From NCBI RefSeq assembly GCF_009914755.1, contig NC_060930.1: a stretch of 64,000 bases of DNA. One strand, written 5' to 3'. A program made the translations under genes and the position numbers. The notes beneath the pieces are model-generated. The model searched no databases. It was not told where the DNA came from and saw only the letters and a list, made by a program, of their open reading frames with translations. This document shows, one piece after another, positions 36,601 to 39,600 of this stretch. Position 1 is the stretch's first letter. The number at the start of each line of letters is the position of its first letter. This DNA comes from the human T2T-CHM13v2.0 reference genome, Homo sapiens.

Positions 36601-39600
36601 ATGCAATAAAAACACAAATCACTCCACCTAATTCTTAGGCAAACTTTCTAGAAAACAAGCACAGTGATAAGAGTCACTATTCTAAAAACACTGGCCACAA
36701 TTCCCTTATCCTTTTGAATTTTCTCTTATAAAAAGGATTGACTGCATTTATTTAATTCTTTGGAATGAAAGTAAATTTGAGATTGAGAACATAGCAGTCA
36801 TATTCCAAACTATCTGAGATTCCAGTAACAATGCACCATAAATTAAATTGAAGCCATGGACACTGTAGTATTGAAATCTAGAGACAAAAAAAGAGTTGTT
36901 TGCTTTCATCATTGAAGATACTACCTAAAAAGAGGATAGAACAGTAATACGAAGATTATAAAGAAAAATGACCATTCATTAACCACCTCCTATGTACCAA
37001 ACACTGTATTAAGTACTTTGGTAGATTATTTCTGATCTTTATACCCATGCAAAATAGTTACCATGTCCATTTTATATAGACAACAGCACTCACAAGAGTT
37101 ATAGAATTTGCCCATGGTTGGTGACCGATTTTAAATCTAAGCCAGTCAGCCTCCAAAAAACATGTTATCCCTCCAAACATTTATGTAGATATGAAAACCA
37201 AATTTATTCCTCTAACCAATTATTTACATTGTTATCCTTTCATTAGCAGTAATGCTATTAGAAAATGTTCTGTTGACTCTTTTATTTTGGATCTCTAAAA
37301 AATCTAAGAGTAATGGTGGGGGGCGGATAGAGGTATATAAAAAACATTAATTTAGCCCACAGAAGTAGGGAAAATTAAAGCCAGAAAAAAAATAAATAAA
37401 GTATACAAAATAGTATTTCTAAAAAGCAGCAATACTTACATAATTGAATACTACAATGAAGTTAAAAAATAAAAATAATATAGATAAAATCATAATCAGT
37501 GTCAAACATTGGACTGTGAGACTAAAAGCAGCATAGGAAAGTGTTCCTGTCACCTACCTATGAGTCCAGGTGATACATGACCTCATGTTCCACACTAAAG
37601 TATATAATCTCCAACCCCTGATGTTCTACCAGAGGGTTAAAATTACAAATATTGCTACTCGGGAGGCTGAGCCAGGAGAATCACTTGAACCCAGGTTGCA
37701 GTGAGCCAAGATCACGCCACTGTACTCCAGCCTGGGCGACAGAGCAAGACTCCATCTCAAAAAAAAAAAAAAAAAATTCCCAATCTAGCTCTTTGGTTTA
37801 GCTTTATAAAATCAAAATTCCATTCAACTGGACTCTTCTAGCTTTTACAGACTTTATCCTTCTATAACATTATTTTTCTTGACCTTGTCTCCCCCGCTAG
37901 AAAACACCTATAAGGTCCATTACAATAACCTTGAATTGGAAGAGTGATGGAAAACTTCCACATATCACAATGACCCAGCACCTGACTAATCAATCATTCA
38001 ACAACTGGCATGTGTTTTGGTCATAATTAATATACTATAAGTGGATGAAGAAATTAAAATACTAGCTGATTATGTGAATTATATATCAATAAAGCTGTTA
38101 AAAACTACTAAGACTTTCTCCTAATCAAATGATTGAAAGTCACCTACGTATGATAAATGAGTTAGTGTGTAATTAGATTCTGAATACCACACTAAAGAAG
38201 CTCTGGGTGGCCGGGCACAGTGGCTCACTCCATTTGTAATCACAGCACTTTGGGAGACTGAGGCAGGAAGATTGCTTGAGCCCAGGAGTACAAGACCAGC
38301 CTGGACAACACGGCAAGACCACATCTCTATTAAAAGTAAAAACAAATTAGCCATGCCTTGGTGGCATGTGCCTATAGTCCCAGCTTATCAGTGGGCTGGG
38401 GTGGGAAGATCCCTTGAGCCCAGGAGGTCAAGGCTACATTAAGCCGGCATTGTGCCACTGCATTCCAGCCTAGGCAACAAAGTCAGACCCTGCCTCAAAA
38501 AAAATAAGAACAGCTTTTCGAGGTAGGAGTCGACTCCTGTGAGGTATGGTGCTGGGTGCAGATGCAGTGTGGCTCTGGATAGCACCTTATGGACAGTTCT
38601 GTCCCAAAGGAGGGATGAGAATAGCTACTGAATTGTTTCTTCCCAGGTCCTAAAGAGCAAGCCTAACTCAAGCCATTGGCACACAGGCATTAGACAGAAA
38701 GCTGAAGTTGAAATGGTGGAGTCCAACTTGTCTGGACCAGCTTAACGGTTCTGCTCCTGGTAACGTTTTTATCCGTGGATGGCTTGCTTGGGTAAGGACA
38801 TGAAGACAGTTCCTGTCATACCTTTTAAAGGTATGGAGAGTTGGCTTGACTACCCTGTGTGGAGCAAGTTTTAAAGAAGCAAAGAACTCAGAATTCATGC
38901 TTGAAGAAGAAATGCAGGCAGACCTGTTATCCTAAACTAGGGTTTTTAATGACCACAACAAGCAAGCATGCAGCTTACTGCTTGAAAGGGTCTTGCCTCA
39001 CCCAAGCTGGAGTGCAGCGGCCTTTGAAGCTTACTACAGCCTCAAACTTCTGGGCTCAAGTGATCCTCAGCCTCCCAATGGTCTTTGTAGACCGCCTGAT
39101 GGAGTCTCATGGCACAAGAAGATTAAAACAATGTCTCCAATTTTAATAAATTTTTGCAATCCAAAAAAAGAAAAAAAATAAGAACAAACAGAATGGGTAG
39201 CAGAATGAAAGGGCTGTGAAAGTCACATGTGCTGTGGGCCAGCCACATGTTCACATTTCAACAAGGAGGTTACTGCTTCTAGTGCATGCATCTATGTATC
39301 TATTCATTTATTTTCAAACAGTGAAGTTTACTAGAAGGAAACAGCAGACAAACTGGAGAGGGCCTAAACTGGAAAGCTGGCTCTGCTACCTGTGACACTC
39401 CATAACTTTAAGCCTTGGATCTTCACCTGTAAGATGCCATGACAGCACCTCCTGCCTATAGCTATTGTGAGCATTCAGCGAGACAGGATTTTAAATACCA
39501 CAAACTAAAATGCACACGTTATTACAATTCCTTACAGTGGGAATTCTAGTTTTACAAACAGGTATTTTTATTTTCACTTAAACACAGAATATTCTCTCTT

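What the first reader, a model, noticed from the sequence alone, without database searches (positions are those of the whole stretch)
38497..39186. Full-length GAS5 lncRNA retrocopy in an MDN1 intron, antisense to MDN1
Seen: about 650 nt of non-repeat sequence with AATAAA, an A tail and a perfect 16-bp TSD, inserted in an AluJ A tail (a typical L1 endonuclease target). Recognised from memory as spliced GAS5, the 5'TOP, multi-snoRNA host lncRNA, with all snoRNA introns removed. Retrocopies of non-coding RNAs are easily missed by protein-based pseudogene pipelines, and the ORF track gives no hint of it. Practical consequence: an intronless near-identical template can confound GAS5 exon-spanning qPCR (genomic DNA carry-over), read mapping and variant calls.
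Basis: partly seen in the sequence, partly recalled or inferred. Interest (0 to 1): 0.8.

Follow-up and report, generated by a model that had tools for sequence, protein, structure and literature searches.

The report
GAS5 lncRNA retrocopy inside MDN1 intron
This is an intron-free, reverse-transcribed copy of the GAS5 non-coding RNA that landed in an MDN1 intron; it is an ordinary kind of genomic fossil, but similar enough to real GAS5 to be picked up by some published GAS5 PCR primers.

Summary
Window 38513-39170 (+) is a full-length processed retrocopy of a 12-exon spliced RNA. Its parent lies on contig C1 at 173222019-173226109, minus strand. That parent carries ten box C/D snoRNAs, one each in ten of its eleven introns (SNORD74, 75, 77, 44, 78, 79, 47, 81, plus hits to the SNORD24 and snR60/Z15 models). 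It also has a TATA box and a CTTTTC start, so it is the GAS5 snoRNA host gene.

All eleven GT-AG introns are removed exactly. Identity is 631 of 647 aligned bases (97.5%). The copy starts at the parental start site with one extra untemplated G. It ends at the parental cleavage site, 13 nt after AATAAA, with a short A tail. A perfect 16-bp direct repeat flanks it, inside the A-rich tail of an old Alu. It is antisense to MDN1.

It is the closest of at least 13 GAS5-derived retrocopies in this genome. Three of four published GAS5 primer pairs fit it with at most one mismatch. Two of those use exon-junction primers.

It is most likely an inert, L1-made pseudogene roughly 10-25 million years old (inferred). 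It is absent from the RefSeq gene table supplied, and no paper found names it. It is a new member of a known kind; interest is low to moderate.

The parts
38209..38496 (+). Old Alu element whose A-rich tail was the insertion target
   Evidence: Two Metazoa_SRP matches at 38210-38329 (22 bits) and 38350-38498 (19 bits), against 64.5 bits for the Alu at 39930. 3 CpG in 291 nt. Subfamily not tested.
38497..38512 (+). 5' copy of the target-site duplication (AAAAAAAATAAGAACA), part of the Alu tail
   Evidence: Family D1, 100% identity, spacing 674. 2 matches in the window against 0.04 expected.
38513..38513 (+). Extra G not templated by the parent, just before the copied start site
   Evidence: The parent has T before the CTTTTC start. 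The alignment leaves this G unpaired. The C15 retrocopy also has a G there. A cap origin is inferred from recalled literature.
38514..39163 (+). Body of the retrocopy: exons 1-12 of spliced GAS5. Last bases of exons 1-11 fall at 38543, 38596, 38632, 38686, 38715, 38753, 38830, 38884, 38917, 38940 and 38988
   Evidence: Global alignment to the spliced parent: 631 matches, 16 mismatches, a 1-nt deletion and a 3-nt GAA insertion. All 11 introns are GT-AG. No snoRNA match anywhere in 37500-40200.
38989..39080 (+). Alu-like antisense fragment that is part of parental exon 12
   Evidence: The parental acceptor lies in ...ttttttgagacag|GGTCTTGCC. Inverted repeats to both arms of the upstream Alu, 78% and 83%. 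25 of 48 genome matches are confined to query 469-566.
39145..39150 (+). AATAAA polyadenylation signal copied from the parent
   Evidence: Read. Identical in the parent, whose similarity to the copy ends 13 nt downstream.
39164..39170 (+). Remnant poly(A) tail, AAAAAAG
   Evidence: Not present in the parent, where ...GCAATCCA is followed by tctggag.
39171..39186 (+). 3' copy of the target-site duplication

Best explanation
A mature, capped, spliced and polyadenylated GAS5 transcript from the chromosome 1 snoRNA host gene was reverse-transcribed and inserted by the LINE-1 machinery (target-primed reverse transcription).

How the insertion ran (inferred from anatomy):
- The nick fell on the T-rich bottom strand of an old Alu's A tail, in an intron of MDN1.
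- The T run primed on the RNA's poly(A) tail.
- Copying ran to the very 5' end and added one G opposite the cap.
- Second-strand repair duplicated 8-16 bp of target.

The result is a 650-nt intron-free, snoRNA-free copy on the strand opposite to MDN1, without the parental TATA box and upstream promoter.

Shown here: identity, exact intron loss, exact ends, direct repeat, and absence of the promoter.

Inferred:
- L1 was the agent.
- The G derives from the cap.
- The copy has drifted neutrally for roughly 10-25 million years.
- It has no function of its own.

Its practical effect is as a look-alike template for GAS5 assays.
For: 1. Parent found exon by exon. 9 pieces on C1:173222019-173225164 (-) at 92-100% identity. 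A short-word BLAST found all 12 blocks.
2. Exact splicing. 12 exons of 30, 53, 36, 54, 30, 38, 77, 54, 30, 23, 48 and 175 nt make 648 nt. All 11 introns are GT-AG. 631 of 647 aligned bases are identical.
3. The parent is GAS5. 10 box C/D snoRNA matches above gathering score, all on the gene strand, one per intron in introns 1-8, 10 and 11 (with exon coordinates). This agrees with the passages read.
4. Exact ends. The copy starts at the C of CTTTTC. In the parent this lies 23 nt after TATATA, preceded by T. The copy stops at the parental end, followed by AAAAAAG.
5. Direct repeat of 16 bp: 2 matches against 0.04 expected.
6. The target reads CTC|AAAAAAAA, an A-rich Alu tail.
7. Neutral drift. 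By my reading of the alignment, with older copies as outgroups, 6 substitutions fall on the copy, 8 on the parent and 2 are ambiguous. 12 are transitions and 4 transversions. 5 of 16 are at CpG sites.
8. GAS5 RNA is known to be retrotransposed. Somatic GAS5 retrocopies in tumours are reported (passages).
Against: - Nothing found contradicts the identity.
- The A tail is very short (7 A plus G). This is usual for an old insertion, but it leaves the tail/duplication boundary ambiguous.
- The base before the duplication is C, not the T of the recalled TT|AAAA consensus.
- 'Inert' is not shown. RefSeq (hub table) lists an experimentally based 'enhancer' at 38521-39025, wholly inside the copy. Expression could not be examined.
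- The age rests on 16 substitutions and on recalled rates. No other primate genome could be searched.
Confidence: 0.93

Rival explanations
1. The retrocopy has been taken over as a regulatory element, an intronic enhancer acting on MDN1 or a neighbour. It would then not be merely a dead copy.
For: The hub's RefSeq table lists a functional element 'enhancer' at 38521-39025. It lies wholly inside the copy (38513-39170) and starts 8 nt after the copy's first base. No tool call here bears on it.
Against: - The assay behind the RefSeq feature is unknown to me. Such features often come from high-throughput episomal reporter screens (recalled), which do not show function in place.
- Substitutions are spread about evenly between copy and parent (6 against 8), and the copy has two indels. 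That looks like neutral drift, though 16 changes cannot exclude constraint on a few motifs.
Confidence: 0.1
2. Because the copy is antisense to MDN1, every MDN1 pre-mRNA carries about 650 nt complementary to mature GAS5 RNA. The two RNAs would pair in the nucleus, with editing, decay or altered splicing. This would couple a growth-arrest lncRNA to a ribosome-assembly factor.
For: The complementarity is a direct consequence: 97.5% over 647 nt, with perfect stretches of 103, 92 and 85 nt. Orientation comes from the hub table. That MDN1 acts in 60S ribosome maturation, and that GAS5 accumulates in arrested cells, is recalled.
Against: - There is no evidence of pairing.
- The intron is short-lived and GAS5 is largely cytoplasmic and translation-coupled (recalled).
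- At least 12 other GAS5 retrocopies exist, so such complementarity is probably incidental.
- The copy shows no sign of conservation beyond drift.
Confidence: 0.03
3. The stretch is not a retrocopy. It would be a DNA-level duplication of the GAS5 locus, or cDNA contamination of the assembly.
For: None found.
Against: - All 11 introns and all 10 snoRNAs are absent, which excludes DNA-level duplication.
- 16 substitutions, 2 indels and a target-site duplication inside an Alu tail exclude recent cDNA contamination.
Confidence: 0.01

Closest known systems
GAS5 (growth arrest-specific 5), the multi-snoRNA host lncRNA gene on chromosome 1 (here G000:C1:173222019-173226109, minus strand)
   Same: Same 12 exons in the same order, from the same start to the same end, 97.5% identical. 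The 5' CTTTTC tract and AATAAA are kept.
   Different: - No introns and so none of the 10 snoRNAs.
- No TATA box or upstream promoter.
- One extra 5' G, a 1-nt deletion, a GAA insertion and 16 substitutions.
- Different chromosome, inside another gene, on its antisense strand.
Other GAS5 retrocopies in the same genome (C15:24386337, C7:104441100, C10:110282500, C1:90894251 and 8 loci holding only the 3' end)
   Same: They derive from the same RNA, end at the same poly(A) site with A runs, and carry the Alu-like exon-12 segment.
   Different: - They are older, shorter or from other isoforms. Identity to the spliced parent is 73-94% for all but the C15 copy.
- C15 is 96.4% identical over its 3' 280 nt but 89.6% over its 5' part. 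It comes from another splice form: 14 nt shorter at exon 4, with exon 7 and 8 differences.
- C7 and C10 also lack those 14 nt of exon 4, and C7 lacks the first 11 nt of the transcript. The MDN1 copy is therefore the only one seen with the full present-day 12-exon form from start site to poly(A) site.
NORAD pseudogenes, including HCG11: retrocopies of an abundant lncRNA
   Same: Copies of a highly expressed non-coding RNA scattered in the genome. They confound assays that cannot tell copy from parent (passage in PMC4947167).
   Different: NORAD is described there as having four copies over 90% identical across more than 4 kb, one of them expressed. For the GAS5 copy, splicing makes the retro-origin provable. 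Its expression is unknown.
Somatic GAS5 retrocopy insertions in tumours (PMC3663115; PMC13122676)
   Same: Same source RNA and the same presumed L1 mechanism (passages).
   Different: Those are new insertions in single tumours. This one is in the reference assembly and 2.5% diverged, so it is old and germline.
Processed pseudogenes of 5'TOP genes such as ribosomal-protein genes (recalled, no call)
   Same: Highly expressed 5'TOP transcripts give many L1-made copies. GAS5, also a 5'TOP gene, has at least 13.
   Different: The parent is non-coding, so protein-based pseudogene pipelines do not see its copies.

Membership tests
L1-mediated processed retrocopy (processed pseudogene) | Colinear with the spliced parent RNA; all introns precisely absent | tested here: met
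   12 exons, 11 GT-AG introns removed exactly, 631 of 647 identical.
L1-mediated processed retrocopy (processed pseudogene) | 3' end at the parental polyadenylation site, followed by an untemplated A tail | tested here: met
   Similarity ends at ...GCAATCCA, 13 nt after AATAAA. The copy continues AAAAAAG; the parent continues tctggag. The tail is short.
L1-mediated processed retrocopy (processed pseudogene) | Flanking target-site duplication of about 7-20 bp | tested here: met
   16-bp perfect repeat exactly at both borders. 2 matches in the window against 0.04 expected. The first 8 bases are A's, so it is 8-16 bp.
L1-mediated processed retrocopy (processed pseudogene) | Insertion at an L1-endonuclease-type site (recalled consensus TT|AAAA on the insert strand) | tested here: inconclusive
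   The site reads TC|AAAAAAAA in an Alu tail. The A run fits; the base before it is C, not T. The consensus and its tolerated variants are recalled, not tested.
L1-mediated processed retrocopy (processed pseudogene) | Parental promoter not copied; locus unlinked to the parent | tested here: met
   The parental TATATA and upstream sequence are absent, and the copy's upstream flank is an Alu. The parent is on C1, the copy on C6.
GAS5 as the parent gene | Host of 10 box C/D snoRNAs in its introns (U74-U81, U44, U47) | tested here: met
   10 Rfam matches above gathering score on the gene strand, in introns 1-8, 10 and 11. Eight carry the expected names. Two match the SNORD24 and snR60/Z15 models at the places where I recall U76 and U80. 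'10 C/D box snoRNAs' and 'U77 in intron 4' come from passages.
GAS5 as the parent gene | 5'TOP start site with TATA box; short exons under 100 nt | tested here: met
   Start CTTTTC lies 23 nt after TATATA. 11 of 12 exons are 23-77 nt and the last is 175 nt. Passage on gas5 organisation.
GAS5 as the parent gene | Match to the named reference transcript (RefSeq/Ensembl GAS5) | not testable with these tools
   No transcript database is on hand and the genome's contigs carry no gene names. The chromosome 1 position is consistent with my recollection of GAS5 at 1q25.
AluJ (target element) | Subfamily-diagnostic positions | not tested
   No Alu subfamily consensus is available here. Only 'old Alu' is supported: weak SRP scores and 3 CpG left.
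Functional enhancer | Regulatory activity in its genomic place | not testable with these tools
   The only evidence is the hub's RefSeq row 'enhancer 38521-39025'. Its assay is unknown to me.

The most novel reading that the evidence does not exclude
The copy is not just a fossil. Lying antisense in an MDN1 intron, it puts about 650 nt of near-perfect complement to the abundant GAS5 RNA into every MDN1 pre-mRNA, with perfect stretches up to 103 nt. Its first 513 nt also coincide with a RefSeq-listed enhancer. An ape-lineage insertion may thus have wired a growth-arrest, snoRNA-host lncRNA to a ribosome-assembly ATPase, either by RNA-RNA pairing or as a new intronic regulatory element.
Probability: 0.06. 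Interest if true: 0.6.

Novelty: new member of a known kind. Interest (0 to 1): 0.25.

Why it matters
The main consequence is practical. GAS5 is measured by RT-qPCR in a very large number of studies.

In silico, I tested four distinct published primer pairs.
- Three fit this intron-free copy with at most one mismatch in the pair, and none of those mismatches lies within 15 nt of a 3' end.
- Two of the three use exon-junction primers that do not fit the parental gene's genomic DNA: 4 mismatches at the 3' end of one primer, and 4 plus a 3'-terminal mismatch in the other pair.
- They would give products of 108 bp (same size as from cDNA) and 188 bp (185 bp from cDNA).

Genomic DNA carry-over can therefore pass as GAS5 signal even with 'gDNA-proof' primers.

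For sequencing, 134 of 431 junction-spanning 50-mers of spliced GAS5 are identical in the copy. Unspliced or permissive aligners can place GAS5 reads in the MDN1 intron, and the 16 differences can look like variants or RNA editing.

The copy also preserves an older state of GAS5. About 8 of the 16 differences appear to be changes in the parent.

Biologically it is an expected product of a highly expressed 5'TOP transcript.

Tried and rejected
- Smith & Steitz 1998 (PMC109273) is not held. I therefore took the gas5 definition from passages in two papers that cite it.
- I looked for the position of the glucocorticoid-receptor-binding hairpin of GAS5 in PMC3759866, to see whether the copy keeps it. 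The 'find' returned nothing useful, so this is untested.
- Literature searches for this copy:
  - 'GAS5 pseudogene': 0 papers.
  - 'GAS5P': 18 papers; the 10 listed are all on fungal Gas5 proteins.
  - GAS5 + retrocopy: 4 papers.
  - GAS5 + retrogene: 18 papers, 12 listed.
  - GAS5 + MDN1: 7 papers.
  - GAS5 + processed pseudogene: 45 papers, 15 listed.
  - GAS5 + pseudogene + genomic DNA contamination: 10 papers.
  - I read passages of only five of these: PMC3663115, PMC13122676, PMC6486473, PMC2394760 and PMC2653536. None names a germline GAS5 copy in MDN1. Titles and abstracts of the rest do not suggest it. Supplements were not opened.
- Phrases for lncRNA retrocopies in general gave 6 papers, none on GAS5.
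- DNA-level duplication and assembly contamination were considered and rejected (see rivals).
- Rfam holds no match for the GAS5 exons themselves. The 8 matches in 37500-40200 are all Alu-related.
- Dating against other primates, classifying the Alu subfamily and checking expression could not be done with the tools on hand.
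Full report
**What is in the sequence**

Reading 38000-39700 shows an Alu on the + strand at 38209-38496, followed by an A-rich tail. The tail is interrupted. The 16-mer AAAAAAAATAAGAACA stands at 38497-38512 and again, perfectly, at 39171-39186 (family D1). The tail then continues as AACAGAA. With up to one mismatch the 16-mer occurs only at these two places in the 64-kb window. 0.04 are expected, and 0 of 100 shuffles gave two.

The 658 nt between the repeats start GCTTTTCGAGG and end ...AATAAATTTTTGCAATCC AAAAAAAG. 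One caveat applies: the first eight bases of the repeat are A's and cannot be told from a poly(A) tail, so the duplication is 8-16 bp.

**Where it came from**

I searched the window's own genome with the 658 nt. 775 candidates came from the first look and 40 were scored, giving 48 match rows.

- Besides the query itself, nine rows lie in order on C1:173222019-173225164, minus strand, at 92-100% identity. Each covers a short consecutive part of the query.
- I fetched C1:173220001-173227500 as L013.
- A short-word BLAST found all 12 blocks, including the first 35 nt and two small blocks that one search had missed.
- Reading the flanks of each block and testing all nearby GT/AG combinations for the best spliced product gave 12 exons of 30, 53, 36, 54, 30, 38, 77, 54, 30, 23, 48 and 175 nt. 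They total 648 nt and are separated by 11 GT-AG introns.
- The spliced product aligns to the insert from end to end: 631 matches, 16 mismatches, one 1-nt deletion and one 3-nt (GAA) insertion in the copy.
- One unpaired G remains at the copy's 5' end and seven unpaired bases (AAAAAAG) at its 3' end.

Every intron is missing exactly.

**Is the parent GAS5?**

Rfam at gathering thresholds finds ten box C/D snoRNAs in L013, all on the gene's strand.

| Rfam match | Bits |
|---|---|
| SNORD74 | 102 |
| SNORD75 | 82.7 |
| SNORD24 model | 55 |
| SNORD77 | 94.8 |
| SNORD44 | 91.5 |
| SNORD78 | 89.4 |
| SNORD79 | 92.4 |
| snR60/Z15 model | 65.5 |
| SNORD47 | 103.8 |
| SNORD81 | 104.1 |

Laid over the exon map, they sit one per intron in introns 1-8, 10 and 11. 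Intron 9 has none. SNORD77 is in intron 4.

- A passage in PMC2394760 says GAS5 hosts 10 C/D box snoRNAs.
- Passages in PMC2653536 describe human gas5 as having short exons (under 100 nt), tandem intronic snoRNAs, U77 in intron 4 and U80.
- That the SNORD24-model and snR60/Z15-model matches are U76 and U80 is my recollection.
- The parental start is CTTTTC, 23 nt downstream of TATATA. This fits the TATA-plus-5'TOP organisation that the title of Smith & Steitz 1998 ascribes to gas5. That paper itself is not held.
- A named reference transcript could not be compared.

I regard the identity as settled.

**Marks of the mechanism**

- *5' end.* The copy begins at the parental start-site C, preceded by a G where the parent has T. 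The independent, near full-length copy on C15 also has a G there. An extra G at the 5' end of full-length L1-made copies is known to me as the trace of the cap (recalled).
- *3' end.* The copy ends at the parental 3' end, 13 nt after AATAAA (39145-39150), and carries a short A tail.
- *Target.* The target is an A-rich Alu tail, read as TC|AAAAAAAA.
- *Promoter.* The parental promoter is not copied.
- *snoRNAs.* None is present in 37500-40200. The eight weak Rfam matches there are all Alu-related.

All this is the standard anatomy of target-primed reverse transcription of a mature RNA by LINE-1. The agent itself is inferred.

**Age and drift**

The 16 substitutions (2.5%) comprise 12 transitions and 4 transversions. 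Five are at CpG sites.

I used the older GAS5 copies in the MAFFT alignment as outgroups and read the columns by eye.
- 6 substitutions and both indels arose in the copy.
- 8 substitutions arose in the parent.
- 2 are ambiguous.

Both lineages thus changed at similar rates. This fits neutral drift of the copy and weak constraint on GAS5 exons.

With recalled neutral rates of 0.5-1.2 x 10^-9 per site per year, 2.5% pairwise divergence gives roughly 10-25 million years. The Poisson range is wide because only 16 changes were counted. No other primate genome could be searched, so this is inference.

**The family**

In one search, 12 further loci extend beyond the Alu-like segment to the GAS5 3' end and are GAS5 retrocopies.

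| Locus | Extent |
|---|---|
| C15:24386337 | near full-length |
| C7:104441100 | near full-length |
| C10:110282500 | near full-length |
| C1:90894251 | from exon 8 on |
| C1:240098678 | 3' end only |
| C5:76689124 | 3' end only |
| C2:5060726 | 3' end only |
| C10:30552958 | 3' end only |
| C8:124894651 | 3' end only |
| C4:99939887 | 3' end only |
| C2:28229036 | 3' end only |
| C6:77375585 | 3' end only |

For the ten whose loci were fetched, identity to the spliced parent is 73-94%, except C15. C15 is 96.4% over its 3' 280 nt and 89.6% over its 5' 280 nt, and it derives from another splice form.

The other 25 rows are confined to query 469-566, which is an Alu-like antisense fragment at the start of exon 12. 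The parental acceptor lies in ttttttgagacag|GGTCTTGCC. The fragment pairs with both arms of the upstream Alu at 78% and 83%.

The MDN1 copy is the closest to the parent among the copies scored. It is also the only one seen with the full present 12-exon form from the start site to the poly(A) site. These counts are lower bounds, because only 40 of 775 candidates were scored.

**Practical claim**

I took four distinct primer pairs from five human studies (passages; two studies share one pair). I placed them on the spliced parent, the copy, the parental genomic locus and four other copies.

| Pair | Design | Fit to the copy | Fit to parental genomic DNA |
|---|---|---|---|
| A | both primers in exon 12 | 0 mismatches, 71 bp | 0 mismatches |
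| B | exon-spanning | forward primer lies over the copy's 1-nt deletion; reverse has 1 mismatch | 0 mismatches, 929-bp product |
| C | forward primer across the exon 11/12 junction | 0 + 1 mismatch (16 nt from the 3' end), 108 bp as from cDNA | 4 mismatches at the forward primer's 3' end |
| D | junction primers 6/7 and 9/10 | 1 mismatch (5'-terminal base) + 0, 188 bp against 185 bp from cDNA | 4 + 1 mismatches |

Three of four pairs should therefore amplify the copy from genomic DNA. Two of them are junction designs meant to exclude genomic DNA.

For reads, the longest exact stretches shared with spliced GAS5 are 103, 92 and 85 nt. 153 of 599 50-mers are identical in the copy, 134 of them among the 431 that span a junction. 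For 100-mers the figure is 4 of 549.

**Function**

The copy has no promoter of its own that I can see, no snoRNA and no long open frame. The longest ATG frame is 76 codons, on the opposite strand. I judge it inert (inference).

Two things keep a small door open.
- The hub's RefSeq table lists an 'enhancer' at 38521-39025, wholly within the copy and starting 8 nt after its 5' end. I do not know the assay.
- Because the copy is antisense to MDN1, the MDN1 pre-mRNA carries a 650-nt complement of GAS5.

Neither could be tested here.

**What is in print**

Seven GAS5 searches found no paper naming a germline GAS5 copy in MDN1. An eighth search, on phrases for lncRNA retrocopies in general, gave 6 papers, none on GAS5. 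The phrase 'GAS5 pseudogene' is in 0 papers. I read passages of five of the papers found and otherwise only listings; supplements were not opened.

- Somatic GAS5 retrocopies in tumours are reported (PMC3663115, PMC13122676; passages).
- Retrocopies of another abundant lncRNA, NORAD, are described with the same warning about assays (PMC4947167; passage).
- A 2025 review notes that lncRNA-derived pseudogenes are little studied (PMC12747553; passage).
- The RefSeq gene table supplied has no row for this copy.
- It may still be present in tracks I cannot see, such as the UCSC retroposed genes or GENCODE.

**Verdict**

This is an ordinary L1-made processed retrocopy of a non-coding RNA. It is well preserved and full-length, has real nuisance value for GAS5 assays, and shows no evidence of a function. 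It is a new member of a known kind, with interest of about 0.25.

Noticed in passing
window 38521-39025: The RefSeq 'enhancer' feature from the hub table lies wholly inside the retrocopy and begins 8 nt after its first base. Either spliced GAS5 sequence scores in the underlying assay, or the call is tied to the copy in some other way. The assay is unknown to me.
   Followed up: no
L013 2019-2193 (parental exon 12); window 38989-39080: The last GAS5 exon starts inside an antisense Alu-like fragment, and its splice acceptor lies in ttttttgagacag|GG. The 3' exon of GAS5 is thus partly an exonised Alu. 25 of 48 genome matches hit only this segment.
   Followed up: partly
L002 1490-2085 (G000:C15:24386337-24386912): A second near full-length GAS5 retrocopy, also with an extra 5' G. 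It comes from another splice form: 14 nt shorter at the start of exon 4, a different exon 7 form, and no exon 8. Identity to the parent is 96.4% over its 3' 280 nt but 89.6% over its 5' 280 nt. Primer pair A fits it with 0 + 1 mismatches.
   Followed up: partly
L003, L006, L002 against window 38633-38646: The three other long copies (C7, C10, C15) all lack the 14 nt TTGTTTCTTCCCAG at the start of exon 4, meaning they used an acceptor 14 nt downstream. The MDN1 copy has those 14 nt. The retrocopies thus record a change, or a variation, in GAS5 splice-site use over time.
   Followed up: no
L013 2625-2792 (parental intron 9): This is the only one of the 11 GAS5 introns without a snoRNA match at Rfam gathering thresholds.
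   Followed up: no
window 38209-38496 with 39029-39068: The upstream Alu and the Alu-like piece of the copy are in inverted orientation about 580-760 nt apart (40 nt at 78% and 23 nt at 83% complementary). This is a possible short hairpin in the MDN1 pre-mRNA.
   Followed up: no
literature: PMC13122676: A 2026 study reports 'somatic GAS5 retrocopies' in 21 oesophageal tumour patients. Reference-genome GAS5 copies like this one share long exact junction-spanning stretches with the spliced RNA (up to 103 nt). I did not check whether such calls allow for them.
   Followed up: no
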